Source: Candidatus Nomurabacteria bacterium GW2011_GWE1_32_28 (GTDB lineage: Bacteria; Patescibacteriota; Minisyncoccia; Phycocordibacterales; UBA9973). Taken from it: DNA of 64,000 bases. Both the position numbers and the translations under genes were made by a program. The stretch is taken from assembly GCA_000989515.1 (NCBI GenBank), contig LBOM01000003.1, forward strand, positions 111,833 through 175,832, read 5' to 3'. Below the pieces are notes generated by a model, which was given only the letters and a program-made list of their open reading frames with translations, was not told the DNA's origin and ran no database searches. Below, piece after piece: positions 25,423 through 56,199 of this stretch; position 1 is the stretch's first letter, and every line of letters begins with the position of its first letter.

Positions 25423-25484
25423 ATTCGTAATTAATTTTTTTGTATTTTAAATTCGTAATTCGTAATTGATAATTCGTAATTGAT
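25423..25484. repeat. Heptad repeat element upstream of the 24041-25417 gene
   Basis: ttttgtattttaaattcgtaattcgtaattgataattcgtaattgattt. In gene sense it reads ...AATTACGAATTACGAATTTAAAATACAAAA, resembling TTACGA-17nt-TAAAAT. Confidence 0.8.
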
Positions 25485-26493: not shown

Positions 26494-26596
26494 CTCGTAA
26501 TTAATTTAATTATATCATTCGTAATTAATAATTCGTAATTGACCTCCCCTTTTTCTTTTTTAAATTCGTAATTCGTAATTGTTAATTCGTAATTGA
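26494..26596. repeat. Extended heptad repeat tract (~100 nt)
   Basis: aaactcgtaattaatttaattatatcattcgtaattaataattcgtaattgacc...taaattcgtaattcgtaattgttaattcgtaattgatt. Confidence 0.8.
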
Positions 26597-26606
26597 TTAT
26601 ATATTA

Positions 26607-28445
26607 TTATTTTCCGTCTGCTTCTTCTAGGTCTTGTTTTGCTTTTTTTATGGACAAAATTTGAGAAGGATCAGATGTTATTATTTGGTCTTCTGTGTAG
26701 GAGGATATTATTTTTATAGCAACATGTTTTAATCCTGCAAAAAATATTCCTTCCCCTACCCCAGACTCTAAAAGAAGATATTTTTCTTCGTCGGTAAGAT
26801 TGAATGTCTTTTGAAGAATATCTATGGTTGTTGGAGACTGTTTTAAAAGAATCTGTATGGAAGAGTTTGTTATTATAGGAATACCATAAGGAGATTTCAT
26901 AAAGTCTGCTGCATCTTGTGTAATAGTAGAAAGACCTAAATAATATTTTCTACCTCTTTTTGCCATAGAGTATAAGAAAGAAGCTGTATCTTCTGATTTC
27001 ATCATCCACCATGCTTCATCTACAACCAACAGGCGTTTTTTTAGATTTTTTCGTATTGTTATCCATATATAGTGCATGACTATATACATTGCAACTGGTT
27101 TTAATTCGTCTTCCATGTCTCTCACAGAAAATACTACAAATTTCTTATTTATGTCTACATTTGATGGTCTATTTAAAAAAGTAGACCAAGTGCCTTTTGT
27201 ATATTTTACCAATCTTTGCATAATAGAATCACTTCCCTCCATACCAGCTAGCACCATCTCAAAATCTGAAAGGAGCGGTGGTTCTATATTTGAAAAATTT
27301 GAATCAGGGGTTATGTCTTTCATTGCATAGGTCTCTGAAATAGCACGGTCAACCATTGAGTCTTCTTCTGGTGAGAGTCCTCCAAGCATTAGTCTAAAGA
27401 GCCCTACTAAGTTTATAATGTTTGACCTTAGTACATCTTCATTTGATTCGTCTTCACGTGGTATTGGTAAATCAAAAGGATTAATGTGGTGGTCTGAAGA
27501 AAGAGAAATATTGAAATACCTTCCACCGACAGCTTCAGCCAAATATTCATATTCCCTTTCAGGGTCTATTACTATTACATCTACGTCAAACATTAAAGAT
27601 CTTAATATTTCTAATTTTGTTGCATAACTTTTTCCTGAACCAGATTTTGCAAATGTTACAGAGTTGTAGTTTTCTAATGAAAATCTATCGAAAATAACTA
27701 AACTTGAATTGTGTCTATTTACACCATACAGTATTCCATTATCAGAAGTTAGATCAAAGGAAACAAATGGAAATACACTAGAAAGAGGCTCTGAATTTAA
27801 TTTCTGGTGAATATTTAGTAGATCATTACCGAGAGGCATTACACTTTTAAAACCTTCTTCTTGTTGGAAAATTGCTGGTTTAATATATATTAATTTTGAT
27901 TCTAGTATTGATTTTATTTCATTTTCAATTTTAAAAAGTTCGAGTTCATTGTCAGCATAGACTGTTATATAAATACTAACGTCAAACATTTTTTGTTGTG
28001 CTTGAATCAGGTTATCTCTCAAGCCTTCTAGGTCTTGGTATGCAGTATCAAGCATTGGGTCACGAACCATACCTTTCTTTTCACGTACATTTATTTGACT
28101 TTGTACCTCAGCTACCTTTTTTTGAAATTGTCGTAGTGCTAAAGATGTATCTATTGGGTGAATAAATATTGAAACATCAAAAACTTTATCTAGATTAATT
28201 ATTGGAGAAAACCAATTGTCACTTAAGAATCTAGGATAAGAAATAATAAAAAAAGTACGAGCTATCTTATCACCCAGATTAATAGATTTTGACTCTATTT
28301 TTAATGCCGAAGGGGCGACTATGTCTTGGAGCTCTAATTTTGCTGATTCATAGATTTCTTCTGGTAGTACTGCTAAAACTGAAGCATTTGCTCCTTTGTT
28401 TGTATCTGTATTCTTTTTTCCTAATAAGTTATCTAAAAATGACAT
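26607..28445 (-). CDS. VirB4/TrbE-family type IV secretion ATPase (C-terminal ATPase part)
   Basis: 612 aa. Walker A VTFAKSGSGKSYATKL and VirB4-type Walker B RLLVVDEAWWMM. Overall VirB4/CagE architecture. Confidence 0.8.
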   Translation of the reverse strand: MSFLDNLLGKKNTDTNKGANASVLAVLPEEIYESAKLELQDIVAPSALKIESKSINLGDKIARTFFIISYPRFLSDNWFSPIINLDKVFDVSIFIHPIDTSLALRQFQKKVAEVQSQINVREKKGMVRDPMLDTAYQDLEGLRDNLIQAQQKMFDVSIYITVYADNELELFKIENEIKSILESKLIYIKPAIFQQEEGFKSVMPLGNDLLNIHQKLNSEPLSSVFPFVSFDLTSDNGILYGVNRHNSSLVIFDRFSLENYNSVTFAKSGSGKSYATKLEILRSLMFDVDVIVIDPEREYEYLAEAVGGRYFNISLSSDHHINPFDLPIPREDESNEDVLRSNIINLVGLFRLMLGGLSPEEDSMVDRAISETYAMKDITPDSNFSNIEPPLLSDFEMVLAGMEGSDSIMQRLVKYTKGTWSTFLNRPSNVDINKKFVVFSVRDMEDELKPVAMYIVMHYIWITIRKNLKKRLLVVDEAWWMMKSEDTASFLYSMAKRGRKYYLGLSTITQDAADFMKSPYGIPIITNSSIQILLKQSPTTIDILQKTFNLTDEEKYLLLESGVGEGIFFAGLKHVAIKIISSYTEDQIITSDPSQILSIKKAKQDLEEADGK

Positions 28446-33272: not shown

Positions 33273-33310
33273 TTTGTTTCTAACTTTTTTCCTTCTCTAT
33301 TTATTTACTT

Positions 33311-33356
33311 TCTGTATTTTAAATTCGTAATTCGTAATTGTTAATTCGTAATTGAC
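33311..33356. repeat. Heptad element with conserved flank TTCTGTATTTTAAATTCGTAATTCGTAATTGTTAATTCGTAATTGAC
   Basis: The 50-nt string is identical to 34236-34282 and closely related to 40769-40800, 26556-26596 and 25441-25470. It lies ~45 nt upstream (gene sense) of the 30741-33272 start. Confidence 0.85.
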
Positions 33357-34183
33357 TTACCTTTTTTCTTCTCCAAGAAGTTATCTTTTGTAACCACTGA
33401 ATGTCCTAACCTTTTTTCTAATTTTTTACGTGCTCCACCAGCTATATTTCCTCCTGCTTTTGCATCAGATTTTAATTTTGAAATTCCTTTGGAATGCTCT
33501 TTCTTGTGTATTTCTGTCGTTGCTGTTTCAGCAAGCATATTTAACACAAGTTCAAGATTCGTCATATTATCTCTCAGACTTTGTTTTTTTAATTCTTTAA
33601 GATTTTTATATTCTTTTGTCGTGAGTCCTGCCCAAGCCTTCGTGATCTCATCTGTTAGTATAGCAAATTCTTTGCCTTCCTTTACTCCACGGTTTTCCCA
33701 TTCATCAGTTAATGATTTTCGGATTTCAATACTTTTTAATCTTTGATTTATCCAGTTTTGACTATATCCTTTTTGTAGATATGTTTTTAACGCACGATTT
33801 ATAGAAAGCTCTGGGTCTGCTGTTTCTTCTAATCTCTCATAGCCTACACGAGCAAGCCAGAGTTTAAATGGTTCAGCTTTTGGTGATGGAATAGATTGAA
33901 TTAAACGGAACATTACTTCTGTGTCAGCTACATCAGTAATATAATATTTACCATCTGATGCTTGCATTTTCAGATGGTGACATTTTGTCACCATCTCACT
34001 ACCTTCGTCACGAAGTCTTTGAGCTAGCTTGTTCCAGTATTTTCTTGCATCAATACTTTCTGTTAAAACTTTAACTACATCAACAACCGAAAAATACCAT
34101 AATTCTTTTTCAGCATCCCAGTGTCTGCGAATTTCTTTGTTGTCAAAAATTGCTATTTTATTTTTTGTATTTTTCTTTTGCAT
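33341..34183 (-). CDS. Bro-N / DinD-family protein (phage antirepressor-like, DNA-damage-inducible protein D family)
   Basis: 280 aa. N-terminal Bro-N pattern KIAIFDNKEIRRHWDAEKELWYFSVVDVVKVLTES. The C-terminal half parallels E. coli DinD. Paralog of 62223-63065. Confidence 0.65.
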   Translation of the reverse strand: MQKKNTKNKIAIFDNKEIRRHWDAEKELWYFSVVDVVKVLTESIDARKYWNKLAQRLRDEGSEMVTKCHHLKMQASDGKYYITDVADTEVMFRLIQSIPSPKAEPFKLWLARVGYERLEETADPELSINRALKTYLQKGYSQNWINQRLKSIEIRKSLTDEWENRGVKEGKEFAILTDEITKAWAGLTTKEYKNLKELKKQSLRDNMTNLELVLNMLAETATTEIHKKEHSKGISKLKSDAKAGGNIAGGARKKLEKRLGHSVVTKDNFLEKKKGKSITN

Positions 34184-34235
34184 TTTACTTTCTAACTTTA
34201 TAAACTTTATGACTTTCTACTCTCTCCTGTTCTTT

Positions 34236-34282
34236 TTCTGTATTTTAAATTCGTAATTCGTAATTGTTAATTCGTAATTGAC
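34236..34282. repeat. Heptad element (identical copy of 33311-33356)
   Basis: ttctgtattttaaattcgtaattcgtaattgttaattcgtaattgactta. Confidence 0.85.
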
Positions 34283-36712
34283 TTATCGTTTTTTGAAGTA
34301 GTATTCGTAATCAGAAGCATCTTTGAGTATCGTAGATGTGTTTCTTATGTCTATAATCTTATCATAATAATATTCATACACTGTTAATTTATTTCCAATG
34401 AGCTGGAGCTGATATGCTGCCACGTCTGGTTCACTTACACGTATTTCTCTACCGTCTTCAGTGACATAACCAAACATCCTTGCAATTTGATCTGATAGAT
34501 ACCATGCAAAATTTTGTAAATCTGTGCCTTCTTCATAGCCATATAATTTAGCGAATTCTTTGTCTGCCATTATTTGTCTTGTAAAAACTGTTTCTATTCC
34601 TTCATGATATCGCACAACATCACCTTCTCGTGGAGTCACTTTTTGTCCCAATGTAAGAGGTGTTGTATTTATTATACCAGTATTGTTTGTATTATTATTT
34701 CCAGTATTGTTTGTATTGTTGCCGGTTACTCCAGGGATCCAAACACCAGCTACCCATGTTCCAGGAGTCCAAGCATCGTCTACCCAAGATACTGGAGTCC
34801 AAGCACCATCCATCCAAGCTGTAGGAATCCATGTATTGTTTTCCCAAATCTCAGCAATCCATGTACCATTTTCCCAAGATCCATTAGTCCATCCATCGTC
34901 TCCAGTCCAGTCTGTGTCTCCGTTGGTATCAACATAAATATATGCATTGCCACTTGCTGTTCCCTTGTCTCCATTACAAGATACAGAAAAAGATGTTGAA
35001 GATGCAGGACGAACTCTTTGTTGTCCATTTAGACCAACAGAGATTCCATCAAATTTACAAGAAGTAGTGTTTTCAGATGACCAAGTTATCGTTGCTGGGC
35101 CATCTTTTTCTGATAGATAATAAGAGTCTGCTGTTACTCTGACCTTGGGTAATGATTTATAATAATCATCTTCGCCATCTCCACCCTCTCCTTCTCCGCT
35201 AGTATTAACATAAACATATGCATTAGCACTTGCTGTTCCGTTAGGGCCACTACATGTTATTGAATAAGAAGTAGATGATGTAGGTTGAACAATCGCTGGT
35301 TTTCCTGCGCTATTTGTTGCTACTGTATTTTTTACTTCTTTATCTCCAAAAGAACAGGAAGTGGTGTTTGTTGATGTCCAATTTATTGTTGAAGAATCAC
35401 CAGGAGAAATTGTATAAGGATTTGCTGAAAGGATTACTGTAGGGAAAATATTATTATAGATACAAAAAGTTTTTGATTCATTTAAAATATATGGAGGAGT
35501 ACATGTAGGAGTATATCCATAACTATCACACGTAGGATAATTAATAGCACCATTTGTACAATAATCCCAACCAGTACCATTATCACTTCCATCACCCCAA
35601 TTAGAGCCATCGTCTCCTCCATAAGGAGTATTCTTCGGTGCAGCTTTTGTTGTGAAACTAAAAGTAGAACCAGTAATTTTTACAGTATCTTCTCCTGTCG
35701 CCATAAAAATATATTTTGTAGATGGTCTTAATCCTGATAATGAAAAACTTATATTTCCATAAATATTACTACGGTTACCTATGGTGTAAGATTTTTCTCC
35801 GACATCCTTCCAAGAGGGAGCTACTTCTTTAAATGCATATATTTCAGTATATGGTCTATCTTCTTTATATCGGAAATAAGTTTTTAGGTCCTTAACGGAA
35901 TTATAAGAACCATTTAATTTTGCGGACGTTGAAGTTATTTGTGTCGCATCTTTTGTTTCAATTATTGTTTTTAATGGGGCTGTGCGGAAGTCTTTTACTA
36001 TACTGTCTCCACCATAGGCTATATTATTCTTATTAGAAATAATTGCACAATAATAATAAGTAGTATCTGGTATTAAGTTTTCAATTTCTTGAGAAAAAGT
36101 CTGTTCTCCTGTAATTAATTTTAAAAATAAATCTTTTGTTGATTTCATTTTTGTTCCATAGATATCATTACAAAAAATAGGGGCTATTTTTTCTTTTGAA
36201 TATCTAAAATATGCAGTAATTGGGAGTGTTGGATTTGTAGTAGTATAGCCACCCTTTCCCCATAATCTTGCGGTAGTTTGTGTTACCTCATCTGCACCTA
36301 TTGTTTGTATGGAGAGCTTAGAAGTATCTGAAGGAGAAGATACTGGTATATTTTTTACATTTATTGTTATTGTTCTTGGTCCTACTTCTACTTCTGTATT
36401 TCTTTCTTCGTCATACCCATAACAATTAAGTGTGTATACACTTTCTTTTTCATTTGGGGTAACTACTAAATTTCCACTTCCACTTAATGACGACGTATCA
36501 TTTATTTTACAAGATGTTGAATAGTCAGATGAAGACGAAGACCAAGAAAGAGTGACTGACTCTCCATTGTTTATTGAGTAAGAAGAAGCTACAAAGTTAT
36601 TTATATAAAGAAAAAAGGTGTTGTATTCTTGTTGTGCAGAAACATTGTTTATATAAAATGCACTTAAAATAAATATGAATATTATTAGAATTTTTAGTAT
36701 GTTTTTTTTCAT
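34283..36712 (-). CDS. Large secreted repeat protein (Ig/FN-like modules, Trp-rich tandem repeats)
   Basis: 809 aa with a signal peptide. Repeated Cys-containing modules (YTLNCYGYDEE / YSITCSGPNGTASANAYVYV / FSVSCNGDKGTASGNAYIYV) and a W-rich tract WIAEIWENNTWIPTAWMDGAWTPVSWVDDAWTPGTWVAGVWIPG. Confidence 0.55.
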   Translation of the reverse strand: MKKNILKILIIFIFILSAFYINNVSAQQEYNTFFLYINNFVASSYSINNGESVTLSWSSSSSDYSTSCKINDTSSLSGSGNLVVTPNEKESVYTLNCYGYDEERNTEVEVGPRTITINVKNIPVSSPSDTSKLSIQTIGADEVTQTTARLWGKGGYTTTNPTLPITAYFRYSKEKIAPIFCNDIYGTKMKSTKDLFLKLITGEQTFSQEIENLIPDTTYYYCAIISNKNNIAYGGDSIVKDFRTAPLKTIIETKDATQITSTSAKLNGSYNSVKDLKTYFRYKEDRPYTEIYAFKEVAPSWKDVGEKSYTIGNRSNIYGNISFSLSGLRPSTKYIFMATGEDTVKITGSTFSFTTKAAPKNTPYGGDDGSNWGDGSDNGTGWDYCTNGAINYPTCDSYGYTPTCTPPYILNESKTFCIYNNIFPTVILSANPYTISPGDSSTINWTSTNTTSCSFGDKEVKNTVATNSAGKPAIVQPTSSTSYSITCSGPNGTASANAYVYVNTSGEGEGGDGEDDYYKSLPKVRVTADSYYLSEKDGPATITWSSENTTSCKFDGISVGLNGQQRVRPASSTSFSVSCNGDKGTASGNAYIYVDTNGDTDWTGDDGWTNGSWENGTWIAEIWENNTWIPTAWMDGAWTPVSWVDDAWTPGTWVAGVWIPGVTGNNTNNTGNNNTNNTGIINTTPLTLGQKVTPREGDVVRYHEGIETVFTRQIMADKEFAKLYGYEEGTDLQNFAWYLSDQIARMFGYVTEDGREIRVSEPDVAAYQLQLIGNKLTVYEYYYDKIIDIRNTSTILKDASDYEYYFKKR

Positions 36713-41226: not shown

Positions 41227-42174
41227 CTACTCTTTTTTGTTGATATCTATGATTTTTGTGAGATTGATCCAATCTGAGAGAGTTAAATTTTCTGCTCTTT
41301 TGTTTCCAAGAGATTCTAACTTAATCATCGAGTCAAGGGCGGAGGCAATTCCTCCGCCCTTGAGAAATGTTTTTAAATTTGAGGAGAGTTTTTTTCTTTT
41401 ATGGGCAAAGCCAGTATGTATTATTTCCCAAAATTTCTCTTCATTTAGTTTATTTTTGATAAAAATTTTTCTTGAGATGTTTTTTATAGCGATTATTGCG
41501 GAATCTACCTTTGGGGCAGGAGAAAAATACCTTGAAGGCACCTTCATAATTATTTTAGGGCTCCCATATGCCTTTACTGATATGGATAAAATACTTTCCT
41601 TGCCGTCGCGTGCGACTATTCTCTTTGCTACTTCGTTTTGTACCATCAAGATCATCATCTCTGGTTGTTCTTTTTCTGAAAGAAACTTTTTCAATATGGC
41701 ACCAGTTATATTATAGGGAATATTAGCGATAATTTTATAAGAAAAATAATGAGGAATATTATTTTTAAAACCACACATATTTCCCTGCTGGGAAATTGCT
41801 ATGCTCGGCTCGACAGCCTGCGCAATGCTTTTAAAAACAACATTCCTCATTATTTTTCTAATTTGTAATTTGTAATTTGTAATTTGTAATTTTAGTATGT
41901 CATCATTTATTAAAATTAATTTCTGGTTTTTTATTTCTTCAGAGAATTTAATTTTTAGAAGTTCATAAAGTTCGTAGTCTTTTTCTATGGCTACAACACA
42001 GCCTGCTTTTTCTAAAAGTTTTTCTGTTAAGGCACCCTTTCCGGGTCCTATTTCTAGTATAATATCTCGAGAAGAAACTTCTCCAGCCTCTACTATTTTT
42101 TTTAATGCGATAGTAGATTTTAAGAAATTTTGACCTAATGATTTTTTTGCTTTGTGTATTTTCTGCATTTTCAA
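41227..42174 (-). CDS. rsmA: 16S rRNA (adenine1518/1519-N6)-dimethyltransferase
   Basis: SLGQNFL...ILEIGPGKGALTEKL... is the KsgA family signature. It has two foreign in-frame segments: a palindrome at 41333-41363 (encodes LKGGGIASAL) and an (AATTTGT)n repeat at 41858-41892 (encodes LKLQITNYKLQI). Confidence 0.9.
   Translation of the reverse strand: MKMQKIHKAKKSLGQNFLKSTIALKKIVEAGEVSSRDIILEIGPGKGALTEKLLEKAGCVVAIEKDYELYELLKIKFSEEIKNQKLILINDDILKLQITNYKLQIRKIMRNVVFKSIAQAVEPSIAISQQGNMCGFKNNIPHYFSYKIIANIPYNITGAILKKFLSEKEQPEMMILMVQNEVAKRIVARDGKESILSISVKAYGSPKIIMKVPSRYFSPAPKVDSAIIAIKNISRKIFIKNKLNEEKFWEIIHTGFAHKRKKLSSNLKTFLKGGGIASALDSMIKLESLGNKRAENLTLSDWINLTKIIDINKKE
41333..41363 (-). repeat. 31-bp GC-rich palindrome inside ksgA
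   Basis: TCAAGGGCGGAGG-CAATT-CCTCCGCCCTTGA is a perfect 13-bp inverted repeat. Confidence 0.8.
41858..41892 (-). repeat. (AATTTGT)5 heptad tandem repeat, in-frame in ksgA
   Basis: ctaatttgtaatttgtaatttgtaatttgtaatttt. Confidence 0.8.
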
Positions 42175-42210: not shown

Positions 42211-44244
42211 TTATATATAAATTGTTTTTATTCCTCCTTCCTCACCTTCTTTCTCTAGTATATCACTTGGAATATCTGAAATAAATTCAGATGGAGCATT
42301 TATTTGTCTAGAGCCAAATATTGTACGGAAATTTGCAAATGATAAAAATAATTTTTCACGAGCTCTTGTGATTGCTACGTAAAAAAGTCTACGTTCTTCT
42401 TCTTTGTCTTCTCCATTTTTACTCTCATTATTTCTTCTGTGTGGAAAAAGTCCATCTTCTAATCCTGTAGTAAAAATATATTTAAATTCAAGACCTTTTG
42501 ATGCATGCACTGTCATTAATTTGACAGCATTTGTTTCTGTTTTTTTATTTTCAGCAATCATCATTGAGTCTTGATCTGAGGCTAATGACGCATCTTCTAA
42601 AAGTTTCTCTATTCCCAATCCGTCCTTTGAATTATCATATTTTAGAGCCAATGTTACTAATTCTTTTATGTTTTCTAATCTTTCCATGTCTTCTTCTGTG
42701 CCGGTTGAAAGCTCCGTCTCTATTCCAGATTTTTTTACTGCGAACCTAATGACTTCAGATGCTTTTGAACTTTTAATTTTTTCTTTTATTTCTTCTAATA
42801 TTTTATAAAAATTATCTATCTTTATTTTTACTTTTATTGGTAGATTTTCCTTTTCTCCAGAAAAAAGTTTTATCAATGTTACTTTCCCTATTCCCCTAAC
42901 AGGGAAATTTATTATTCTTTTTATTTCAGAAAGACTTTCAGGATTTAGTGCGCAACGTAAATAAGCGAGAGTATCTTTTATTTCTTTTCTTTCAAAAAAT
43001 TTAACACCCAAAACTTGGTATGGAATATTGTATCGTAGCAATGCTTCTTCTAGAGCGCGGGATTGAAAATTTGCACGATAGAGGATGGCAACGTCAGACA
43101 AAATTATGGATGCTACCTTAGAAGGGTCGCTGTCTAGGTCTGTTGACCTAGCGCTGCCTCTCGGCTCGTCAGCCTGCGAGACACCCTTCAAAGGTACATC
43201 CGTAATTTTGTCTAAAAGTTCTAAAATTTTTGTTGCGACGAAATCAGCTTCATCATTTTCATCTAATGCTTCATATAGTCCTATCTTCTCTCCAGTTTTA
43301 TTTTTGGTAAATAAATTTTTATCAGGCCTGTATACATTCTTTTTTATTACCTCATTTGCTGCCTCTAATATGTTTTGAGTTGATCTATAATTCTCTTCAA
43401 GTAATATTATTTTTGTTTCTTTTCCATAATCTTTTTCAAAACTTAAAATATTTTTTAAATTTGCTCCACGCCAAGAATAAATATTTTGATCGGCATCTCC
43501 AACTACACAAATATTTTTATTTTTTTCAGAAAGCAAACGTGACATCAAATATTGTACTTCATTTGTGTCTTGATATTCATCTATGTGTATGTATTCCCAT
43601 TTTTCTTGATAGATTTTTCTTATTTCTTCTTTTTCTTTTAATAGTTTTGTTGCTTTTAAAAGTAGATCATCAAAATCTAAAGAATTCTCTTTAGCTTTTT
43701 TCTTTTCATATAGGGCCCAGACTTGAGCTACTAGTTTACTTAAATAGTCATACACTTTTTCCTCATAATCTTTTAAATGTGTGAATTTACCTTTTTCTCT
43801 ACTTATTATATTTTTTATTTTTCTAGGATCATATTGTTTTGGATCTATTCCTAATTCTTTTAGTGATTCTTTGATCAATGTAGTGGAATCAGAATCATCT
43901 AATATTGTAAAATGTCTAGTAAGACCCAAAATATGGGCATTTTCTTTGATTATATAGACTCCTAGTGAGTGAAAAGTAGACACAAAAGGAACAGAATCTT
44001 GACCTTTTATATGTTTTTTTATTTCTGAAATTATTCGTTCACGCATTTCTTTTGCTGCCTTGTTTGTGAATGTCACAGCTAAGATTTTATCTGGAGATAT
44101 TCCATTTTTAATTAAATTCAATATTCTATGTGTTATTGTCTTCGTTTTTCCTGCACCAGCTCCAGCGACAATCAAAATAGGACCATTCATATGAATGGCA
44201 GCTTCTCTTTGCATAGCATTTAGTCCTTTTAAGTGTTCTTCCAT
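42211..44244 (-). CDS. uvrD: UvrD/PcrA-family ATP-dependent DNA helicase
   Basis: LNAMQREAAIHMNGPILIVAGAGAGKTKTITHRI... with helicase motifs I-VI. The start is taken at MEEHLKG (ATG 44242-44244) immediately after TATAAT. The ORF-track start is at 44268. It has a family-B GC-rich insertion at 43124-43188. Confidence 0.9.
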   Translation of the reverse strand: MEEHLKGLNAMQREAAIHMNGPILIVAGAGAGKTKTITHRILNLIKNGISPDKILAVTFTNKAAKEMRERIISEIKKHIKGQDSVPFVSTFHSLGVYIIKENAHILGLTRHFTILDDSDSTTLIKESLKELGIDPKQYDPRKIKNIISREKGKFTHLKDYEEKVYDYLSKLVAQVWALYEKKKAKENSLDFDDLLLKATKLLKEKEEIRKIYQEKWEYIHIDEYQDTNEVQYLMSRLLSEKNKNICVVGDADQNIYSWRGANLKNILSFEKDYGKETKIILLEENYRSTQNILEAANEVIKKNVYRPDKNLFTKNKTGEKIGLYEALDENDEADFVATKILELLDKITDVPLKGVSQADEPRGSARSTDLDSDPSKVASIILSDVAILYRANFQSRALEEALLRYNIPYQVLGVKFFERKEIKDTLAYLRCALNPESLSEIKRIINFPVRGIGKVTLIKLFSGEKENLPIKVKIKIDNFYKILEEIKEKIKSSKASEVIRFAVKKSGIETELSTGTEEDMERLENIKELVTLALKYDNSKDGLGIEKLLEDASLASDQDSMMIAENKKTETNAVKLMTVHASKGLEFKYIFTTGLEDGLFPHRRNNESKNGEDKEEERRLFYVAITRAREKLFLSFANFRTIFGSRQINAPSEFISDIPSDILEKEGEEGGIKTIYI
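43124..43188 (-). repeat. Family-B GC-rich element, in-frame in uvrD (encodes ...ADEPRGSARSTDLDSDPSK...)
   Basis: gggtcgctgtctaggtctgttgacctagcgctgcctctcggctcgtcagcctgcgagacaccc matches the reverse complement of the uvrB insertion at 2224-2298, apart from the internal mini-hairpin. Confidence 0.7.
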
Positions 44245-44319
44245 AATTATAATATTAGCACATAACAAAAATAGCCCACCATTTTTTATTATGAGTTATT
44301 TTTGAGTAAGTTTTTTAGA

Positions 44320-49922: not shown

Positions 49923-51512
49923 ATGAGCCCTTTAGAACTCAAAAACTTAATATCTAAAATTCCCAAAAAAGTTTTATTTGTAACGGACACGCTTGAAGAA
50001 GCAGGTTTTGAAGCGTACCTTGTTGGTGGGTGTATAAGGGATATTCTTATAGGTAGAGAACCAAAGGATTGGGACATAACGACAAATGCTAAACCAGAAC
50101 AAATTATTGGGCTTTTTGAAAAAACGGTATATGAGAATGAATTTGGTACTGTAATGGTTATTCAAGAAGATGTTTCACAAGAAACATTACGTCAAATAGA
50201 GGTTACACCATATAGAATTGAGGCAAAATATACTGATTTTAGGCACCCAGACGGGGTTTTATTTAGTAATGACATAGAAGATGATCTTAAGAGACGTGAT
50301 TTTACAGTAAATGCAATGGCTTTTAGACCTAAAGGACATGATAAAAACTTTGTAGATATATTTGGTGGTCTAAAGGACATAAAAGATAAAATATTAAAAG
50401 CGGTAGGCGAGCCTGATGATCGTTTTGTCGAAGATCCGCTTCGGATGCTTCGAGCCATTCGTATTGCTTTACAGCTTGGTTTTTCTATATCCTATGAAAG
50501 CAGTGAAAGTATTTTAAAAAATGCAGACTTAATAAAAAAAATATCACCAGAAAGAATTCGTGATGAATTTATAAAAATAATTATTTCACCAAATCCATCT
50601 GTTGGAATAGTGATGTTGCAAAAATTTGGATTATTAAAAAACATTATTCCAGAACTAGAAGAGGGAATAGGTTGTGAACAATCTGGGGAACATATCTATG
50701 ATGTGTGGAACCATTTACTTCATGCATTACAACATGCGGCAGATAAAGATTGGCCTTTAGAAGTAAGGCTCGCAGCCCTTTTTCATGATATTGGAAAACC
50801 AAAATCTAGGAGATCTATAGAAATAGAAGGAAATGCTCTCCGTCGTTCGCACACTATCTTGGAAGGGCAAGATCAAAAACTTTCGCAGCGAATACTCCTG
50901 CAAGCACATCCTTCTATTTCTAAGAAAAAATATACTTTTTATGGTCATGAAGTGATAGGGTACAGAATGGCAAAGAAAATATTAGAACGATTAAAATTTT
51001 CAAAAAAAGAAATTGAATTAATTGAAAAACTTGTTCGCAATCATATGTTTTTTTCTGATACAGAATTGATTACGCTTTCTGCTGTACGTAGAATTATTTC
51101 AAAAGTAGGAAAAGAAAATATTTGGCTTCTTATGGATGTCCGTGAGTGTGATAGAGTAGGCATGAAAAAAAAGGAAGCACCCTATCGTCTACGTAAATAT
51201 TTTGCAATGATAGAGGAAGCTCTACATGATCCTATATCTGTAGGACAGCTAAAAATAGATGGAGAATTCATGATTAAGGAACTTAAAATTAAGCCAGGCC
51301 CTAGAATGGGATGGATTTTACACGCTCTTTTGGAAGAAGTCTTAGATGACCCAACGAAGAATGATAAAGGACATCTTAGCCTTTTAGTTGAATCATTAAA
51401 TATGCTCGGTGATAATGAATTAAGGACATTGGGTGAAAGGGGAAAAGAAAAAAAGGATGAGCTAGAGATAGAAGAGATCGATAAATTAAAAAAGAGACAT
51501 GGAGTGAAGTAA
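49923..51512 (+). CDS. cca: CCA-adding tRNA nucleotidyltransferase with HD domain
   Basis: Pol-beta NTase head LVGGCIRDILIGREPKDWDITT, HD motif LFHDIGKP. It has a family-A GC-rich in-frame insertion at 50836-50900 (encodes ...[26 protein letters not shown]...). Confidence 0.9.
   Translation: MSPLELKNLISKIPKKVLFVTDTLEEAGFEAYLVGGCIRDILIGREPKDWDITTNAKPEQIIGLFEKTVYENEFGTVMVIQEDVSQETLRQIEVTPYRIEAKYTDFRHPDGVLFSNDIEDDLKRRDFTVNAMAFRPKGHDKNFVDIFGGLKDIKDKILKAVGEPDDRFVEDPLRMLRAIRIALQLGFSISYESSESILKNADLIKKISPERIRDEFIKIIISPNPSVGIVMLQKFGLLKNIIPELEEGIGCEQSGEHIYDVWNHLLHALQHAADKDWPLEVRLAALFHDIGKPKSRRSIEIEGNALRRSHTILEGQDQKLSQRILLQAHPSISKKKYTFYGHEVIGYRMAKKILERLKFSKKEIELIEKLVRNHMFFSDTELITLSAVRRIISKVGKENIWLLMDVRECDRVGMKKKEAPYRLRKYFAMIEEALHDPISVGQLKIDGEFMIKELKIKPGPRMGWILHALLEEVLDDPTKNDKGHLSLLVESLNMLGDNELRTLGERGKEKKDELEIEEIDKLKKRHGVK
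50836..50900 (+). repeat. Family-A GC-rich inserted element, in-frame in cca
   Basis: ctccgtcgttcgcacactatcttggaagggcaagatc...cgcagcgaatactcctgcaag is the reverse complement of the uvrA/polA copies. Orientation relative to the coding strand is the same in all three genes. Confidence 0.7.
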
Positions 51513-52378: not shown

Positions 52379-53338
52379 ATGAAAATTGGGATTTTTGATT
52401 CGGGGTTAGGAGGATTAATTATTGCGAAGGCAATAAGAAAAGTGATGCCAGAATATGACTATGTATATTTGGGAGACACAAAAAGAGTGCCTTATGGTAA
52501 TAGGTCGCATGAAGCTATTTATGAATTTACTCGTGAGGCGGTAGATTATTTATTTAAAAAAGAAGATTGCGCGATTATTATTATTGCTTGCAACACTGCA
52601 TCTGCAAGAGCACTAAGAAGAATTCAACAAGAATATTTAGTTGAATACAATGCGACACGTAGATTGATGGGGGATTATGAAAGAAAAATATTAGGTGTAC
52701 TTATTCCAGCTGCAGAAGAAGCTGCAAGATATAAGAGAGTAGGAATATTAGGAACTTTGGGAACAGTAAATTCAAATTCTTTTCCTAATGAAATTCAAAA
52801 AATAAATTTAGAAAAGAAAAAAAAATTAGAAAAAAATAATTATTTGTCCTTTTTTCAGCATACGCAACATTGTATTAGTAAACCATATTCAGGTTCGAGT
52901 GCGGGCTGTGAAAAAGGAGCAAATACTTATTTTTTAGATGAGATTGAAAATGATACAAAAGTATTTCAAAATTCTGCACCATTGCTCGTGCCTTTAATAG
53001 AAGAAGGGGAGAAAGTTTTAGCAGTACAATTTATTAAAAAATATTTGAAAACACTTCAAGTTAAAAAACTTGATGCATTAGTTCTCGGCTGTACACATTA
53101 TCCTTTTTATAAAAAAGAGATTAAAAAGATACTTGGTTCTAAAATTAAAGTAATCTCTCAAGATGAAATTGTTCCTAAAAAATTGAAAGATTATTTTGTT
53201 AACTATCCTGAAATTGAGAAAAAACTTTCTAAAAATAAAAAAGCAAAAATATTAGTGACAGATATAACTCCTAATATAAAAAAGTTATCTCAAAAATGGT
53301 TTGGGAAAAATACAGAATTGGAATTAATTGAATTTTAA
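52379..53338 (+). CDS. murI: Glutamate racemase, with a ~45-aa internal insertion
   Basis: MKIGIFDSGLGGLIIAK...ACNTASA...GCTHYP. The start is taken at the ATG right after TTTATAAT. The insertion SKPYSGSSAGCEKGAN is encoded by GC-rich element family E at 52883-52916. Confidence 0.85.
   Translation: MKIGIFDSGLGGLIIAKAIRKVMPEYDYVYLGDTKRVPYGNRSHEAIYEFTREAVDYLFKKEDCAIIIIACNTASARALRRIQQEYLVEYNATRRLMGDYERKILGVLIPAAEEAARYKRVGILGTLGTVNSNSFPNEIQKINLEKKKKLEKNNYLSFFQHTQHCISKPYSGSSAGCEKGANTYFLDEIENDTKVFQNSAPLLVPLIEEGEKVLAVQFIKKYLKTLQVKKLDALVLGCTHYPFYKKEIKKILGSKIKVISQDEIVPKKLKDYFVNYPEIEKKLSKNKKAKILVTDITPNIKKLSQKWFGKNTELELIEF
52883..52916. repeat. Family-E GC-rich element, in-frame in murI
   Basis: ccatattcaggttcgagtgcgggctgtgaaaaag matches the reverse complement of 55121-55155 (the intergenic hairpin arm) at 30/34 positions. 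Confidence 0.65.
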
Positions 53339-54123
53339 ATCTCTATCCAAATAGGGCAGTGGTCTGAGCCATGATAATCGGAAAGTATTCCTGTTTTTTT
53401 TATTCCTGTTTTTTTATTAAGAAAGTATTTGTCTGCAAAAAAGTAGTCTAGACGCCAGCCAACATTTCTGTCTCTTGCTCGAGTTTTTTGATCCCAGTAA
53501 GTATAAGAATCTTTTTTCTCTGGATAAAAATATCTAAAAACATCTATAAAATTATTTTTTATTACTTTACTAATCCATGCACGTTCTATGGGCAAGAATC
53601 CAGTATTCTCTTCATTTGCTTTTGGACGTGCGAGGTCTATCGCTTCGTGTGCTGTGTTTATATCTCCACAAAAAATAACGTGCTCGCCATTTTTGCGAAG
53701 TTTTAAAATAAATTTTAAGAAAGCATCATAAAATTCTAATTTGTATTTTAATCTATGTGGACCACTTCCACCGTTTGGAAAATACCCAGTGATGATTGTT
53801 GTTTTTTTATTTTTGTTTTCATATTTGGCAATTAATAATCTGCCTTCATCGTCGAATTTTTTTATTCCCATTCCATATAAAACTTCCTTTGGTTTTTCTT
53901 TTGAATAAATTCCCACACCACTATATCCTTTTCTTAATTTAGAATATGCAAAGTAAGAATGATATGGAGGAATGTTTCTCACATCTTCGTGTAACTGGTC
54001 TGGTTCTACTTTTGTTTCTTGTAAGCATAAAATATCTACTTTCCCTTTATCAAATAAGGGTATAAGAAAGCCTTGTTTTGCCGTTGCCCTTAATCCATTT
54101 GTGTTCCACGAAACTATTTTCAT
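53335..54123 (-). CDS. xth: Exodeoxyribonuclease III
   Basis: MKIVSWNTNGLRA...DILCLQETK...GDINTAH...SDHCP are the ExoIII/APE1 catalytic motifs. Confidence 0.9.
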   Translation of the reverse strand: MKIVSWNTNGLRATAKQGFLIPLFDKGKVDILCLQETKVEPDQLHEDVRNIPPYHSYFAYSKLRKGYSGVGIYSKEKPKEVLYGMGIKKFDDEGRLLIAKYENKNKKTTIITGYFPNGGSGPHRLKYKLEFYDAFLKFILKLRKNGEHVIFCGDINTAHEAIDLARPKANEENTGFLPIERAWISKVIKNNFIDVFRYFYPEKKDSYTYWDQKTRARDRNVGWRLDYFFADKYFLNKKTGIKKTGILSDYHGSDHCPIWIEI

Positions 54124-54124
54124 A

Positions 54125-55042
54125 TTATTTTTTAGAATGAAACTTTCTGTGAACTTCTTGCAATTGTTTGTCGGTCACGTGTGTGTAGATTTGTGTCGTT
54201 GCTATATTAGAATGTCCCAACATTATTTGCACACTTCTTATGTCTGCACCATTTTGTAAAAGATCAGTAGCAAAACAATGTCTTATAATATGAGGAGTAA
54301 CTTTTTTTGAGATACCAGCTTTTATAGCATAATGTTTTACTATCCTCTCTATCGATCTTCTTGCTAGTCCTTCTTTTTCATTTATACTTTTTTCTTTTGA
54401 TACTTTTACAAACAGAGCATCATCCATATCTTTTCTATTTTTTAAATATTCATTTATACATTTATTTGCTTCTTCTGAAACAAAAACTACTCTGACCTTG
54501 CTTCCTTTTCCTCGTATTGAAAATTCCCCAGCAGAGAAAGCCATATCTCTGGTGAGTGAACATAATTCAGAGACACGAAGACCAGTAGAAAAAAGTAATT
54601 GTAGTATCGCTCTGTCACGAAGTGATTTGATATCGTTTCCTTCTGGCGCAGAGAGTAGACGTTCGAGTTCTGTATGGGTTATCAAGTCAAGTTGTCTCTC
54701 AGGTACTTTTGCTAATTCTATTCTTTCAGCAGGAAGGGACTCTATCTTTTTCTTTGCTAAATATTTGAGAAATCCTCGTATACCTATCAGATAATAATTT
54801 TGAGTTTTCTTTTTTAATGTTTCACCATTTTGTCTGTTATTCCCGGCGCATTGTCTGTTTAGAAAAAGTCTAAATTCTCTCACGTTTTCATCGGTTATAT
54901 CTTTTACATCTTTTACTTTTATAAATTCTAAAAAACGAGTTATGTATCTGTCGTAATTTTCTACAGTTTTTAAACTTGAGCCTTTTTCAATTTCTAAATA
55001 TTCTAAAAATTCTCTTTTTAATTTATACACATCAGAGATCAT
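54125..55042 (-). CDS. xerD: Tyrosine site-specific recombinase XerC/XerD family
   Basis: C-terminal catalytic region PHIIRHCFATDLLQNGADIRSVQIMLGHSNIATTQIYTH (R..H..R...Y) and an N-terminal core-binding domain. Confidence 0.85.
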   Translation of the reverse strand: MISDVYKLKREFLEYLEIEKGSSLKTVENYDRYITRFLEFIKVKDVKDITDENVREFRLFLNRQCAGNNRQNGETLKKKTQNYYLIGIRGFLKYLAKKKIESLPAERIELAKVPERQLDLITHTELERLLSAPEGNDIKSLRDRAILQLLFSTGLRVSELCSLTRDMAFSAGEFSIRGKGSKVRVVFVSEEANKCINEYLKNRKDMDDALFVKVSKEKSINEKEGLARRSIERIVKHYAIKAGISKKVTPHIIRHCFATDLLQNGADIRSVQIMLGHSNIATTQIYTHVTDKQLQEVHRKFHSKK

Positions 55043-55109
55043 TTATTGATTATATCATGCCTGCCTGCCTTCTAGTGGGTTGCACAATATTTAAAGAATT
55101 TATTAAAAA

Positions 55110-55201
55110 TTGCAAGGTAGTATTTTTCACGGCCCGCACTCGAACTTGAACATGGTTTATCATCTTTATGAAGCGTATGCCGAAAAAACACTACCTTGCA
55201 A
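55110..55201. repeat. ~92-nt hairpin element (19-bp terminal inverted repeats) in the xerD-rpsO divergent intergenic region, containing family-E sequence
   Basis: TTGCAAGGTAGTATTTTTC ... GAAAAAACACTACCTTGCAA. The internal cacggcccgcactcgaacttgaacatgg is shared with the murI insertion. Confidence 0.6.
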
Positions 55202-55230
55202 TTTCTTCAGCTTTATGCTAAGATAATCCA

Positions 55231-55494
55231 ATGTTAACTACAAAGAAAAAGCAGTTAGTTATAAAGAAAAATCAAGTTCACGAAAAAGACACAGGATCTT
55301 CTGTTGTTCAAGTTGCTATATTGTCTACTCAAATAGACGAACTAGCAAAGCATTTAAAGAAGCACAAAAAAGATAATAATTCTCGTCGTGGTCTTATCAA
55401 AATGGTAGCAGATAGACGAATTCATTTAAAATATTTAGAACGAAAAAATAAACCTCAATACAATGCAGTTGTTAAAAAAATGAAACTTGCTTAA
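55231..55494 (+). CDS. rpsO: 30S ribosomal protein S15
   Basis: 87 aa. ...GSSVVQVAILSTQIDELAKHLKKHKKDNNSRRGLIKMVADRRIHLKYL is the S15 signature. Confidence 0.9.
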   Translation: MLTTKKKQLVIKKNQVHEKDTGSSVVQVAILSTQIDELAKHLKKHKKDNNSRRGLIKMVADRRIHLKYLERKNKPQYNAVVKKMKLA

Positions 55495-55573: not shown

Positions 55574-56083
55574 ATGACAGTTATAAAAAATAAAGAACAG
55601 AGAGTGGGTGTTTTTATTGATACTCAAAATTTATATCATTCAGCTCGCAACTTGTATAAGGCGAGAGTAAATTTTGGTGCTGTTTTGAAAGAAGCAGTAG
55701 CTGGCAGAAAGCTTGTTCGTGCGGTAGCTTATGTTATCACTTCTGAGGCAGGAGATGAAAAGAATTTTTTTGAAGCACTTGAAAAGTTGGGAATTGAAAC
55801 TAAGACAAAAGACTTACAGGTGTATTATGGTGGTTTTAAAAAAGGTGATTGGGACGTCGGTCTTGCTGTCGATGCTATTAAATTTGCACCGAAGCTCGAT
55901 GCTGTCGTATTAGTCGCTGGTGATGGGGATTATGTGCCTATGGTAGAATATATTCAGAGTATGGGAGTACAAGTAGAGGCAATTTCATTTGGTAAATCAA
56001 CTTCTGGTAAGCTTCGTGAAGCAGTTGATGATTTTATAGATCTTTCTTTGAATCCAAAGAAATATTTAATAGGAATGAGGTAG
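55574..56083 (+). CDS. NYN-domain (LabA-like / DUF88) protein inserted between rpsO and pnp
   Basis: 169 aa. GVFIDTQNLYHS...GDWDVGLAVDAI...VLVAGDGDYVPMVEYIQSMGVQVEAI is the NYN/LabA PIN-like pattern. Confidence 0.7.
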   Translation: MTVIKNKEQRVGVFIDTQNLYHSARNLYKARVNFGAVLKEAVAGRKLVRAVAYVITSEAGDEKNFFEALEKLGIETKTKDLQVYYGGFKKGDWDVGLAVDAIKFAPKLDAVVLVAGDGDYVPMVEYIQSMGVQVEAISFGKSTSGKLREAVDDFIDLSLNPKKYLIGMR

Positions 56084-56199
56084 TAATTATAAATTAATCG
56101 GTTCGCGTTTAGACAGAAAGTAGTGTTCTCAATATTGAGGAACAATACTGTAGTCTCAACACGAACCAAAACCTTGAATTTTTTTGAGGTAAAAATAAT

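What the first reader, a model, noticed from the sequence alone, without database searches (positions are those of the whole stretch)
52883..55201. Family-E element: the murI in-frame insertion matches the hairpin in the xerD-rpsO divergent intergenic region
The 34-nt murI segment ccatattcaggttcgagtgcgggctgtgaaaaag encodes SKPYSGSSAGCEKGAN, inside a ~45-aa insertion that makes MurI unusually long. It matches 30/34 positions of the reverse complement of 55121-55155. That site lies inside a ~92-nt hairpin element with 19-bp terminal inverted repeats (TTGCAAGGTAGTATTTTTC...GAAAAAACACTACCTTGCAA) upstream of rpsO. The same sequence family therefore exists as an intergenic MITE-like hairpin and as a translated insert.
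Basis: seen in the sequence. Interest (0 to 1): 0.65.

Follow-up and report, generated by a model that had tools for sequence, protein, structure and literature searches.

The report
Small hairpin repeat inside murI gene
A roughly 100-base hairpin-forming repeat of a groundwater Nomurabacteria (candidate phyla radiation) genome sits once in frame inside the cell-wall gene murI and once just upstream of rpsO. [quoted passage not shown]

Summary
The 30/34 match is part of a 66-nt conserved core (53/66 identical) present at 52850-52915 in murI and 55123-55188 in the xerD-rpsO spacer. Both copies fold into about 100-nt hairpins.

The source is Candidatus Nomurabacteria GW2011_GWE1_32_28. Both copies are insertions: at least 59 of 120 close MurI relatives have an empty site, and the spacer is 29-107 nt in six relatives against 188 nt here.

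About 25 relatives carry the same element at the same murI site in the opposite orientation. Others carry unrelated hairpin elements there. Near-identical MurI backbones exist as full, half-deleted and empty alleles.

Only the T-run/A-run ends are conserved. The outer arms are site-specific, and in the spacer the right arm is pre-existing flank (a conserved promoter-like block) with the left arm as its inverted copy.

No direct target duplications and no Rfam match were found. Transposase genes were not searched for. Eleven copies keep 87% stem pairing, with compensatory changes at 14 of 24 pairs.

Best reading: a low-copy, non-autonomous, Rickettsia-palindromic-element-like selfish hairpin, translated as a disordered MurI surface loop. 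Its mobility mechanism is unresolved and may involve replication template switching.

The parts
52379..53338 (+). murI (glutamate racemase), 319 aa from MKIGIF; host gene of the coding copy
   Evidence: The ORF is listed. It is identical to P0001, named glutamate racemase of Candidatus Nomurabacteria GW2011_GWE1_32_28, Pfam PF01177.
52808..52954 (+). Total insertion in murI relative to empty alleles: 49 codons (LEKKKKLEKNNYLSFFQHTQHCISKPYSGSSAGCEKGANTYFLDEIEND) where empty alleles have 2 (e.g. KN)
   Evidence: Protein alignment A2. DNA of empty alleles L024/L025/L026. The blastn indel is window 52803-52955 against L024 9074-9085. AlphaFold gives pLDDT below 50 for residues 168-186 and above 90 for the rest of the fold.
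52831..52935 (.). Hairpin of the murI copy (site-specific arms plus core)
   Evidence: Inverted repeat I7. Fold energy -30.8 kcal/mol, z = -5.0.
52850..52915 (-). Family-E 66-nt core, murI copy. The TTTTTCACAGC...GCTGAAAAAA polarity is on the minus strand, opposite to the murI copies of relatives.
   Evidence: (I3).
55107..55204 (.). Hairpin of the xerD-rpsO intergenic copy
   Evidence: Inverted repeat I15. Fold energy -33.9 kcal/mol, z = -6.2.
55110..55122 (+). Left arm ttgcaaggtagta: an inverted duplicate of the native right flank. It is absent from empty-site relatives.
   Evidence: Comparison with empty sites L022 and L027.
55123..55188 (+). Family-E 66-nt core, intergenic copy (TTTTTCACGGC...GCCGAAAAAA)
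55189..55201 (+). Right arm cactaccttgcaa: pre-existing flank, the first hexamer region of a conserved block upstream of rpsO
   Evidence: Present as cactaccttgcat in L027 and cgctaccttgcat in L022, both of which lack the element. The motif cttgcaa/t is conserved in L021, L024, L028 and L029.
55196..55224 (+). Conserved block TTGCAA-N17-TAAGAT, 6 nt upstream of the rpsO ATG (55231). Promoter function is inferred; the element lies immediately upstream of it.
   Evidence: Conserved in most sequenced relatives; L026 (cttgtg...gctaatgt) and L029 (gctaatgt) diverge in one or both hexamers. It does NOT pass the sigma-70 consensus scan (8/12).
54125..55042 (-). xerD-like tyrosine recombinase gene, left neighbour of the spacer
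   Evidence: ORF. Pfam Phage_integrase in syntenic relatives.
55231..55494 (+). rpsO (ribosomal protein S15), right neighbour
   Evidence: ORF. Pfam Ribosomal_S15 in syntenic relatives.

Best explanation
Family E is a low-copy, non-autonomous, hairpin-forming repeat of Nomurabacteria. It behaves like the Rickettsia palindromic elements: selfish DNA that survives wherever it does no harm.

Shown here:
- A 66-nt core with T5-6 and A5-6 ends occurs at unrelated sites.
- Each copy is embedded in its own 13-25-nt complementary arms, giving a 90-115-nt hairpin.
- Both window copies are insertions relative to relatives.
- The murI copy keeps the reading frame and adds 47 residues as a low-confidence protruding loop.
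- The site is highly polymorphic: empty, full, half-deleted, opposite orientation, or occupied by other families.
- In the window lineage the unit [inner arms + core] is inverted relative to the closest relatives.

Inferred:
- The core is copied in at A-runs by a replication or repair template switch rather than by a transposase.
- After copying the hairpin core, the nascent strand snaps back and copies adjacent flank. This creates the site-specific arm (X|A|Y becomes X|A'|core|A|Y).
- Arm-to-arm templated correction then keeps the palindrome perfect, which looks like compensatory evolution.
- Recombination between the arms can flip the unit.
- In genes, only in-frame, stop-free insertions in permissive surface loops persist.
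- No benefit to the host is required.
For: Family and structure:
- 11 copies at 5 distinct sites: murI, xerD-rpsO spacer, cca-acyP spacer, upstream of tig, and a methyltransferase-like ORF.
- Stem pairing is 87% against 44-54% in slid controls. 14 of 24 pairs changed on both sides; 0/500 shuffles reach this.
- Arms are complementary within a copy (score 12-19) but unrelated between sites (1-8).

Insertion status:
- Empty murI alleles.
- The spacer is 29-107 nt in six relatives (64-107 nt in the five that were sequenced) against 188 nt here.
- Right arm equals native flank and left arm is its inverted copy at two intergenic sites: window 55110-55201 against L022/L027, and L030 4140-4275 against L022.

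Turnover:
- Occupied and empty alleles are interleaved across the MurI tree.
- Backbones that are near-identical in the alignment exist as full (P0039), half-deleted (P0051/53) and empty (P0058/88) alleles.

Orientation and translation:
- Relatives encode LFHG[PS]HSNLNVVNE.NIAYAEKS, which is the reverse-strand frame of the window copy.
- The asymmetric inner-arm bulge is flipped together with the core.
- All occupied alleles stay in frame.
- AlphaFold puts the insert at pLDDT below 50 on an otherwise confident fold.

Negative results:
- No Rfam family.
- No direct target duplications.

Known mechanism: template switching at quasipalindromes that creates short inverted copies is established (PMC7202029; PMC9435742).
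Against: - No mobility event was observed. The template-switch step is inferred from junction anatomy at only two informative intergenic sites.
- Short A-rich direct repeats (aaaaa; aaaaagta) flank the [left arm + core] segment. 'Empty' sites could therefore be deletion products in principle.
- At murI the arms are A/T-rich low-complexity sequence, and the native-versus-copied arm assignment is ambiguous. In the P0039/P0058 lineage the inner arms do not resemble the local flank.
- L008 and the L030 cca-acyP copy share similar arms at non-homologous loci. This suggests that arms can travel with the core.
- Long arms of other hairpin families (L030 and L029 xth-xerD spacers) are absent from empty alleles. 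The flank-copy rule is therefore not general.
- Transposase genes were not searched for in the full genome.
- The scattered murI distribution could reflect homologous recombination between strains rather than repeated insertion or loss.
Confidence: 0.6

Rival explanations
1. Conventional MITE. The whole hairpin, arms included, is the mobile unit and is moved in trans by a transposase encoded elsewhere in the genome. Arms diverge afterwards by compensatory change. 'Empty' sites that retain one arm are deletion remnants.
For: - The inner termini T5CAYGGC / GCCRA5-6 are conserved in 10 of 11 copies.
- L008 and the L030 cca-acyP copy share arm sequence at different loci.
- Orthologous murI copies show arm co-variation after insertion.
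- Short direct A-rich repeats could mediate the deletions.
- Arms of other families are not flank-derived.
Against: - No direct target-site duplication at any copy.
- The outer arms differ completely between sites.
- The right arm of the window spacer copy is a block conserved in most sequenced relatives, including six genomes with no family-E copy (no element at all in five of them). It cannot have arrived with the element.
- No transposase gene was noticed while reading the window ORF lists and the relatives' Pfam tables for other purposes; no dedicated search was made.
Confidence: 0.25
2. Functional structured RNA or regulatory hairpin. Examples would be an RNase III processing site, a terminator or attenuator, or a small RNA released from the stem, recruited at several loci.
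For: - The hairpin is strongly maintained, with compensatory changes.
- The core is conserved across genomes.
- Intergenic copies lie next to gene starts or ends: rpsO, tig, cca/acyP.
Against: - Orientation relative to transcription is inconsistent: sense in most murI alleles, antisense in the window's, upstream of the putative rpsO promoter block here, and between convergent genes in L030.
- Presence or absence varies among near-identical strains.
- Unrelated families replace it at the same sites.
- No Rfam match down to E = 10.
- Few G-U pairs, so both DNA strands keep pairing.
Confidence: 0.07
3. Adaptive protein module. The inserted peptide gives MurI a useful new surface loop and spreads by recombination because it is beneficial.
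For: - The insert is kept in frame in about 27 alleles.
- The peptide LFHG.HSNLN..AYAEKS is recognisable across lineages.
Against: - The window allele encodes a completely different peptide from the opposite strand at the same place.
- Most relatives lack the insert, and half-deleted alleles exist.
- Substitutions within the insert are a roughly 7:12 synonymous:nonsynonymous mix by eye on five alleles (sequences).
- AlphaFold gives no confident structure for it.
- The same core also sits in non-coding spacers.
Confidence: 0.04
4. Chance or compositional similarity between two unrelated stretches.
For: None beyond the AT-rich background.
Against: - 53/66 identity, with a unique 13-mer (expected 0.12).
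- Nine further copies elsewhere were recovered by profile search at E = 1e-20 to 1e-25, except the two diverged L030 copies at 9e-11 and 8e-4.
Confidence: 0.01

Closest known systems
Rickettsia palindromic elements (RPE; Ogata et al. 2000, as summarised in PMC10969869)
   Same: - Short (about 100-150 bp) palindromic repeats in a small, AT-rich genome of a host-dependent bacterium.
- Several families are present.
- They are found both between genes and in frame inside unrelated housekeeping genes.
- The insert is translated as an extra peptide compatible with the host fold.
- No transposase of their own.
   Different: - No sequence relationship was tested, and none is expected given the different phylum.
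- The family-E core is shorter (66 nt) and low-copy.
- Its outer stems are site-specific, and at two sites one arm is copied from the flank.
- Turnover is rapid (full, half-deleted and empty alleles in near-identical strains).
- An orientation flip occurs at one site.
None of these last features is part of the RPE description available to me.
Bacterial MITEs such as Correia/NEMIS, ERIC, RUP and BOX (review PMC10969869)
   Same: - Small, non-autonomous, hairpin-forming and repeated.
- Can sit next to promoters and occasionally inside ORFs.
   Different: MITEs are defined by family-wide terminal inverted repeats related to a parent IS and by direct target-site duplications. Here the long terminal arms differ at every site, and no direct duplication beyond an A-run microhomology is seen.
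REP/REPIN elements mobilised by RAYT transposases (from my own knowledge)
   Same: Hairpin-forming repeats of about 100 nt, maintained as palindromes.
   Different: - REPINs have conserved arms (the REP sequences) and a variable loop. Family E is the reverse: conserved loop/core and variable arms.
- REPINs are extragenic.
- No RAYT gene was looked for or seen.
Quasipalindrome template-switch mutagenesis and short-range template switching (PMC7202029; PMC9435742)
   Same: An established replication mechanism that copies one arm of an imperfect palindrome onto the other and creates short inverted copies of nearby sequence. That is the signature seen in the arms here.
   Different: It is known as a local mutational process, not as the means by which a repeat family acquires its stems or spreads.

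Membership tests
MITE | Small (under about 500 bp), no coding capacity of its own, multiple copies | tested here: met
   Hairpins of 90-115 nt. There are 2 copies in the 64-kb window and 11 copies across the window, L008 and 7 related loci.
MITE | Terminal inverted repeats conserved across the family (and matching a parent IS) | tested here: not met
   Outer arms are unrelated between sites (between-copy score 1-8 against 12-19 within a copy). Only the inner T5CAYGGC / GCCRA5-6 is conserved. No parent IS was searched for.
MITE | Direct target-site duplication of fixed length flanking each copy | tested here: not met
   Junctions of the window spacer copy, the L030 cca-acyP copy and the murI copies were compared with empty sites. 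Only A-run microhomology was found. The duplication that is present is inverted, not direct.
RPE-like in-frame palindromic element (functional class) | Palindromic repeat inserted in frame in protein-coding genes as well as between genes | tested here: met
   In-frame copies occur in murI (about 27 alleles) and in the methyltransferase-like fragment P0121. Three intergenic sites are also occupied.
RPE-like in-frame palindromic element (functional class) | Insert lies on the protein surface and leaves the fold intact | tested here: met
   In the AlphaFold model, residues 168-186 have pLDDT below 50 and the core fold is above 90. This is a prediction only.
RPE-like in-frame palindromic element (functional class) | The insert is actually translated | not testable with these tools
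   Frame conservation in every occupied allele, in both orientations and in the half-deleted allele, argues for translation. No proteomic data are available here.
Rickettsia RPE families proper | Sequence homology to RPE-1 to RPE-10 | not tested
The different phylum makes homology unlikely.
Known structured RNA (Rfam) | Match to a curated covariance model | tested here: not met
   The whole window at gathering score gives only 5 tRNAs. Region 52700-55300 down to E = 10 gives only noise.
REP/REPIN-RAYT | Conserved REP arms, extragenic location, linked RAYT gene | tested here: not met
   The arms are variable and the core is conserved. Copies occur inside ORFs. The RAYT gene was not searched for.

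The most novel reading that the evidence does not exclude
Family E, and perhaps the other hairpin families of these genomes, may be a transposase-independent mobile element. Under this reading it spreads by replication or repair template switching. A 66-nt hairpin core is copied in at an A-run, and snap-back synthesis builds a site-specific stem from the target's own flank. The resulting palindrome then self-corrects and can flip in place. One locus in an essential gene would thus encode two unrelated peptide loops in different strains.
Probability: 0.25. Interest if true: 0.8.

Novelty: new variant of a known kind. Interest (0 to 1): 0.6.

Why it matters
In-frame "selfish DNA" inside housekeeping genes has been treated largely as a Rickettsia peculiarity. 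Here the same phenomenon appears in a candidate-phyla-radiation bacterium, in several families and with very fast turnover.

Such inserts inflate and diversify proteins of tiny genomes. They confound orthologue alignments and gene calling in metagenome bins. They also give natural presence/absence/orientation markers at strain resolution.

If the flank-derived stems reflect the insertion mechanism, this would be a way for short DNA to spread without any transposase.

Tried and rejected
Searches that added nothing:
- Genome-contig scan with GTTCGAGTGCGGGCNGTGAA gave only 3 chance hits in high-GC genomes. The source genome is not in that collection.
- The metagenome scan gave 16 chance hits and one true copy, L008.
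- The viral contig scan gave 0 hits.
- A concatenated six-frame peptide query to the word-indexed protein database returned nothing, because short peptides are not suited to that index. One search was wasted.
- Profile search of the reverse-frame peptide against 1.84 billion representatives gave only 2 extra hits, P0121 and P0122. The family is therefore rare.
- Four contig look-ups returned no DNA: P0007, P0011, P0058.
- Literature searches in the held library for such elements in CPR, Parcubacteria or Patescibacteria found nothing relevant. This is not proof that the phenomenon is undescribed.

Ideas tested and dropped:
- That the core is enriched for open frames: it has 2-4 of 6 open against 1.2-1.7 in shuffles, significant only for L008. 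Dropped as a family property.
- That flank-derived arms are a general rule for all hairpin families: refuted for the L029 and L030 xth-xerD elements.
- That TTGCAA-N17-TAAGAT scores as a sigma-70 promoter: it does not pass the scan. It is kept only as a conserved block.
- A T-arm-like TTCGAGT motif, a hammerhead-like CUGANGA in another family, and the GCATACGC coincidence in the Gemmatimonadota hit L001 were all considered and judged to be chance.
Full report
**1. The observation**

- The murI segment 52883-52916 encodes SKPYSGSSAGCEKGAN in frame. It matches the reverse complement of 55122-55155 at 30/34.
- The shared 13-mer TTCGAGTGCGGGC occurs only at these two places in 64 kb (expected 0.12).
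- The similarity extends over 66 nt at 80%: 52850-52915 against 55123-55188 (I3).
- The spacer copy is a hairpin: arms 55107-55127 and 55184-55204, 95% complementary; -33.9 kcal/mol, z = -6.2.
- The murI copy is a hairpin as well: arms 52831-52857 and 52909-52935; -30.8 kcal/mol, z = -5.0.

**2. Source and context**

- The MurI protein is identical to that of Candidatus Nomurabacteria bacterium GW2011_GWE1_32_28, a member of the candidate phyla radiation.
- The gene order murI - exonuclease III - xerD-like recombinase - rpsO - NYN - pnp is conserved in the relatives fetched as L021-L030; L031 shares only murI and its upstream genes.

**3. Both copies are insertions**

murI:
- Among 120 close MurI relatives, at least 59 have an empty site (EIKKIN-KN-TKVFQN, 272 aa).
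- DNA of empty alleles reads gaaattaaaaaaataaataaaaacacgcaagtctttc (L026) and similar (L024/L025).
- The window allele carries 49 codons (52808-52954) in place of 2.
- An AlphaFold model of the window protein is confident for the racemase fold (pLDDT above 90). It is low for the insert (residues 168-186 below 50), which points to a protruding, probably disordered loop.

Spacer:
- The xerD-rpsO spacer is 64-107 nt in L021, L022, L024, L025, L026 and L027. It is 29 nt in the contig of P0007. It is 188 nt in the window.

**4. More copies**

- Collection scans found one further copy in an unrelated metagenome contig (L008). It lies between a small membrane-protein gene and tig.
- A profile of the core found the murI copies of L021, L022, L027, L028, L029 and L031.
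- It also found a copy between the convergent cca and acylphosphatase genes of L030, and a diverged copy in the xerD-rpsO spacer of L030.
- A peptide profile found an in-frame copy in a methyltransferase-like fragment (P0121).
- About 130 kb of additional related DNA holds no other copies. The family is therefore low-copy.
- There is no Rfam match.

**5. Anatomy**

- All copies share a 66-nt core: TTTTTCAYGGCYCGCACTCGAACYTGAAYRTGGTT...GCGTATGCCRAAAAAA.
- Outside the core, each copy has its own complementary arms of 13-25 nt.
- Within-copy arm complementarity scores 12-19. Between non-orthologous copies it scores 1-8.
- On the 11-copy alignment, 87% of stem cells pair against 44-54% when partners are slid. 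14 of 24 pairs show changes on both sides, and no shuffle of 500 reaches this.
- The inner stem itself covaries: CAGC/GCTG, CGGC/GCCG, TGGC/GCCA, and TTGCAAC/GTTGCAG in L030.
- Few G-U pairs are seen. Both DNA strands therefore keep pairing.

**6. Where the arms come from**

- In the window spacer, the right arm cactaccttgcaa (55189-55201) is present in genomes that lack the element. L027 reads ttttaaaaCACTACCTTGCATtttc and L022 reads ttttaaaaCGCTACCTTGCATtttt.
- Its cttgcaa part belongs to a block TTGCAA-N17-TAAGAT that is conserved in front of rpsO in most sequenced relatives; L026 (cttgtg...gctaatgt) and L029 (gctaatgt) diverge in one or both hexamers.
- The left arm ttgcaaggtagta (55110-55122) is thus a new, inverted copy of native flank.
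- The same holds for the L030 cca-acyP copy. Its right arm gtattatttttgtttt is present in the empty L022 site, and its left arm is the inverted copy.
- In both cases the native arm follows the ...GAAAAA end of the core. An A-run (or aaaaagta) is present at both junctions. There is no direct target duplication.

Caveats:
- The conserved block does not pass the sigma-70 scan, so its promoter role is an inference.
- The short A-rich direct repeats mean that deletion could formally generate the "empty" sites.
- At murI the arms are low-complexity and the native-versus-copied assignment is ambiguous.
- L008 and the L030 cca-acyP copy share arm sequence although their loci differ.
- The long arms of other families are not found in empty alleles.

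**7. Dynamics at murI**

- About 25 relatives carry the same element at the same codon position, but read from the other strand as LFHG[PS]HSNLNVVNE.NIAYAEKS.
- Only the window and P0100 (82% identical) read FFQHTQHCISKP[YC]SGSSAGCEKGAN.
- The asymmetric extra base of the inner arm is on the opposite side in the window copy (tttgtcc/ggagcaaa against tttgctgc/agcacaaa). The unit [inner arms + core] is therefore inverted as a block.
- The closest MurI backbones (P0003, P0009) have the common orientation. This favours an in-place flip, or excision and re-insertion, in the window lineage.
- The window core is slightly closer to L008 (91%) than to the other murI cores (79-86%). An independent insertion is therefore not excluded.
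- Occupied and empty alleles are interleaved throughout a neighbour-joining tree.
- Backbones that are near-identical in the alignment exist as full (P0039), half-deleted (P0051/53) and empty (P0058/88) alleles.
- Every occupied allele keeps the frame, including the half-deleted one. That is expected only if the insert is translated.
- Other alleles carry unrelated inserts at the same position: PLLVEEGVGGG...TPPQKGGE, LRSLGEGG..., RVRTGLSIK and others.

**8. A wider phenomenon**

- The window holds further hairpin elements with the same layout (conserved core, site-specific arms).
  - One family occurs at about 416-517, about 6690-6797 and 50818-50922, the last inside the CCA-adding enzyme gene.
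  - A second family occurs at 2203-2320 and about 43090-43215, inside a UvrD/PcrA-like helicase gene.
  - Single elements occur in ksgA (41737-41862) and in the NYN-pnp spacer (56078-56193).
- A blastn indel scan between relatives returned 108 pairwise hits; these collapse to roughly a dozen distinct occupied/empty indel sites (my grouping), most with strongly negative fold energies, of which eight were inspected.
- At all five sites examined, different genomes carry different families at the same place. This fits a small number of permissive positions in very compact genomes.

**9. Interpretation**

- The simplest account is an RPE-like selfish hairpin repeat. It is tolerated in a MurI surface loop and in a spacer just upstream of the rpsO control block.
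- A strand-specific RNA function is unlikely. Orientation relative to transcription is inconsistent, strains differ in presence, and unrelated families substitute at the same sites.
- A protein-level benefit is unlikely. The two orientations encode unrelated peptides and most relatives lack the insert.
- For mobility I favour a replication or repair template switch with snap-back synthesis. This would account for the inverted flank copy, the A-run microhomology, the lack of direct duplications, and the near-perfect self-correcting palindromes. The underlying process is documented for quasipalindromes (PMC7202029; PMC9435742).
- That mechanism rests on two clean junctions, and I give it roughly one chance in three. 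A classical transposase-mobilised MITE with fast arm co-evolution is the main rival.
- The core is not enriched for open reading frames beyond shuffles. In-frame survival is therefore a filter rather than a design.

**10. Comparison with known elements and novelty**

- Functionally this is the Rickettsia palindromic element situation (PMC10969869, citing Ogata et al. 2000), but in a different phylum.
- It differs by having a conserved core with variable, partly flank-derived stems, very fast turnover, and an orientation flip.
- It fails two defining MITE criteria for the arms.
- I found no description of such elements in candidate-phyla-radiation genomes in the searchable library. That search is limited.
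- I rate it a new variant of a known kind, of moderate to good interest.

Noticed in passing
window 416-517, ~6690-6797, 50818-50922: A second hairpin family with core ..tcagaggagtattcgct..atcttgcccttccaagatag.gtgcgaacgacggcgag.. Each copy has its own complementary arms. The third copy lies in frame inside the CCA-adding enzyme gene (49923-51512). Relatives carry other inserts at that position.
   Followed up: partly
window 2203-2320 and ~43090-43215: A third hairpin family with core gggtgtctcgcag.ctgacgag.cgagaggcagcgct...gacagcgaccc. Both copies lie inside long ORFs (1408-3660 minus; UvrD/PcrA-like 42211-44268 minus), again with site-specific arms of about 30 nt. A related core sits in the xth-xerD spacer of L030 (12984-13115) with 31-nt perfect arms that are absent from empty alleles.
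   Followed up: partly
window 41737-41862: A hairpin with 37-nt arms (89% complementary) in frame inside the ksgA/rsmA-like methyltransferase gene (41227-42174 minus). L029 has a different insert at the same position.
   Followed up: partly
window 56078-56193: A hairpin element in the NYN-pnp spacer (fold about -35 kcal/mol). The site is empty in L024, L025 and L028 and occupied in L021, L022 and L027.
   Followed up: partly
window 7012-42232 (17+ sites, e.g. 25437-25495, 26550-26608, 33309-33367, 34235-34293): A short motif array, AATTCGTAATTCGTAATTG(T/A)TAATTCGTAATTG, is repeated in both orientations, mostly preceded by TTTTCTGTATTTTAA. It looks like a shared control or binding-site module of a gene cluster and is unrelated to the hairpin families.
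   Followed up: no
L029 12862-12966 and L027 ~4315-4405: A further family (core ..gtgtgggttccctgtccttttgactccgagggcgc..) occupies the xerD-rpsO spacer in L029 and the cca-acyP spacer in L027. These are the same two spacers that hold family E in the window and in L030.
   Followed up: partly
L030 10647-10719 (murI, second site); P0035, P0046: Another in-frame hairpin insert (NPVRSRSPQGDRNTRLLTRMASNGI) lies at a second position of MurI. Further small inserts occur elsewhere in MurI orthologues: KGSKSAKGRTR, TSQPPLLNKERGRRSGGEV, LTPSPSPYKVEGEI, and LAQRSLGGVG in P0088.
   Followed up: no
window 52937-52954 vs 52790-52807; L021 1569-1586: After the murI hairpin, the window (EIENDT) and L021 (EGVKTN) carry six extra codons that resemble the native EI(Q/K)KIN just before the insert. 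This is a possible degenerate direct duplication and is absent from the other occupied alleles.
   Followed up: no
L001/L018/L020 ~4266-4328: The chance hit in a Gemmatimonadota contig shares the 20-mer used for the scan and also GCATACGC about 49 nt upstream. It lies in high-GC coding sequence with different spacing and was judged coincidental.
   Followed up: partly
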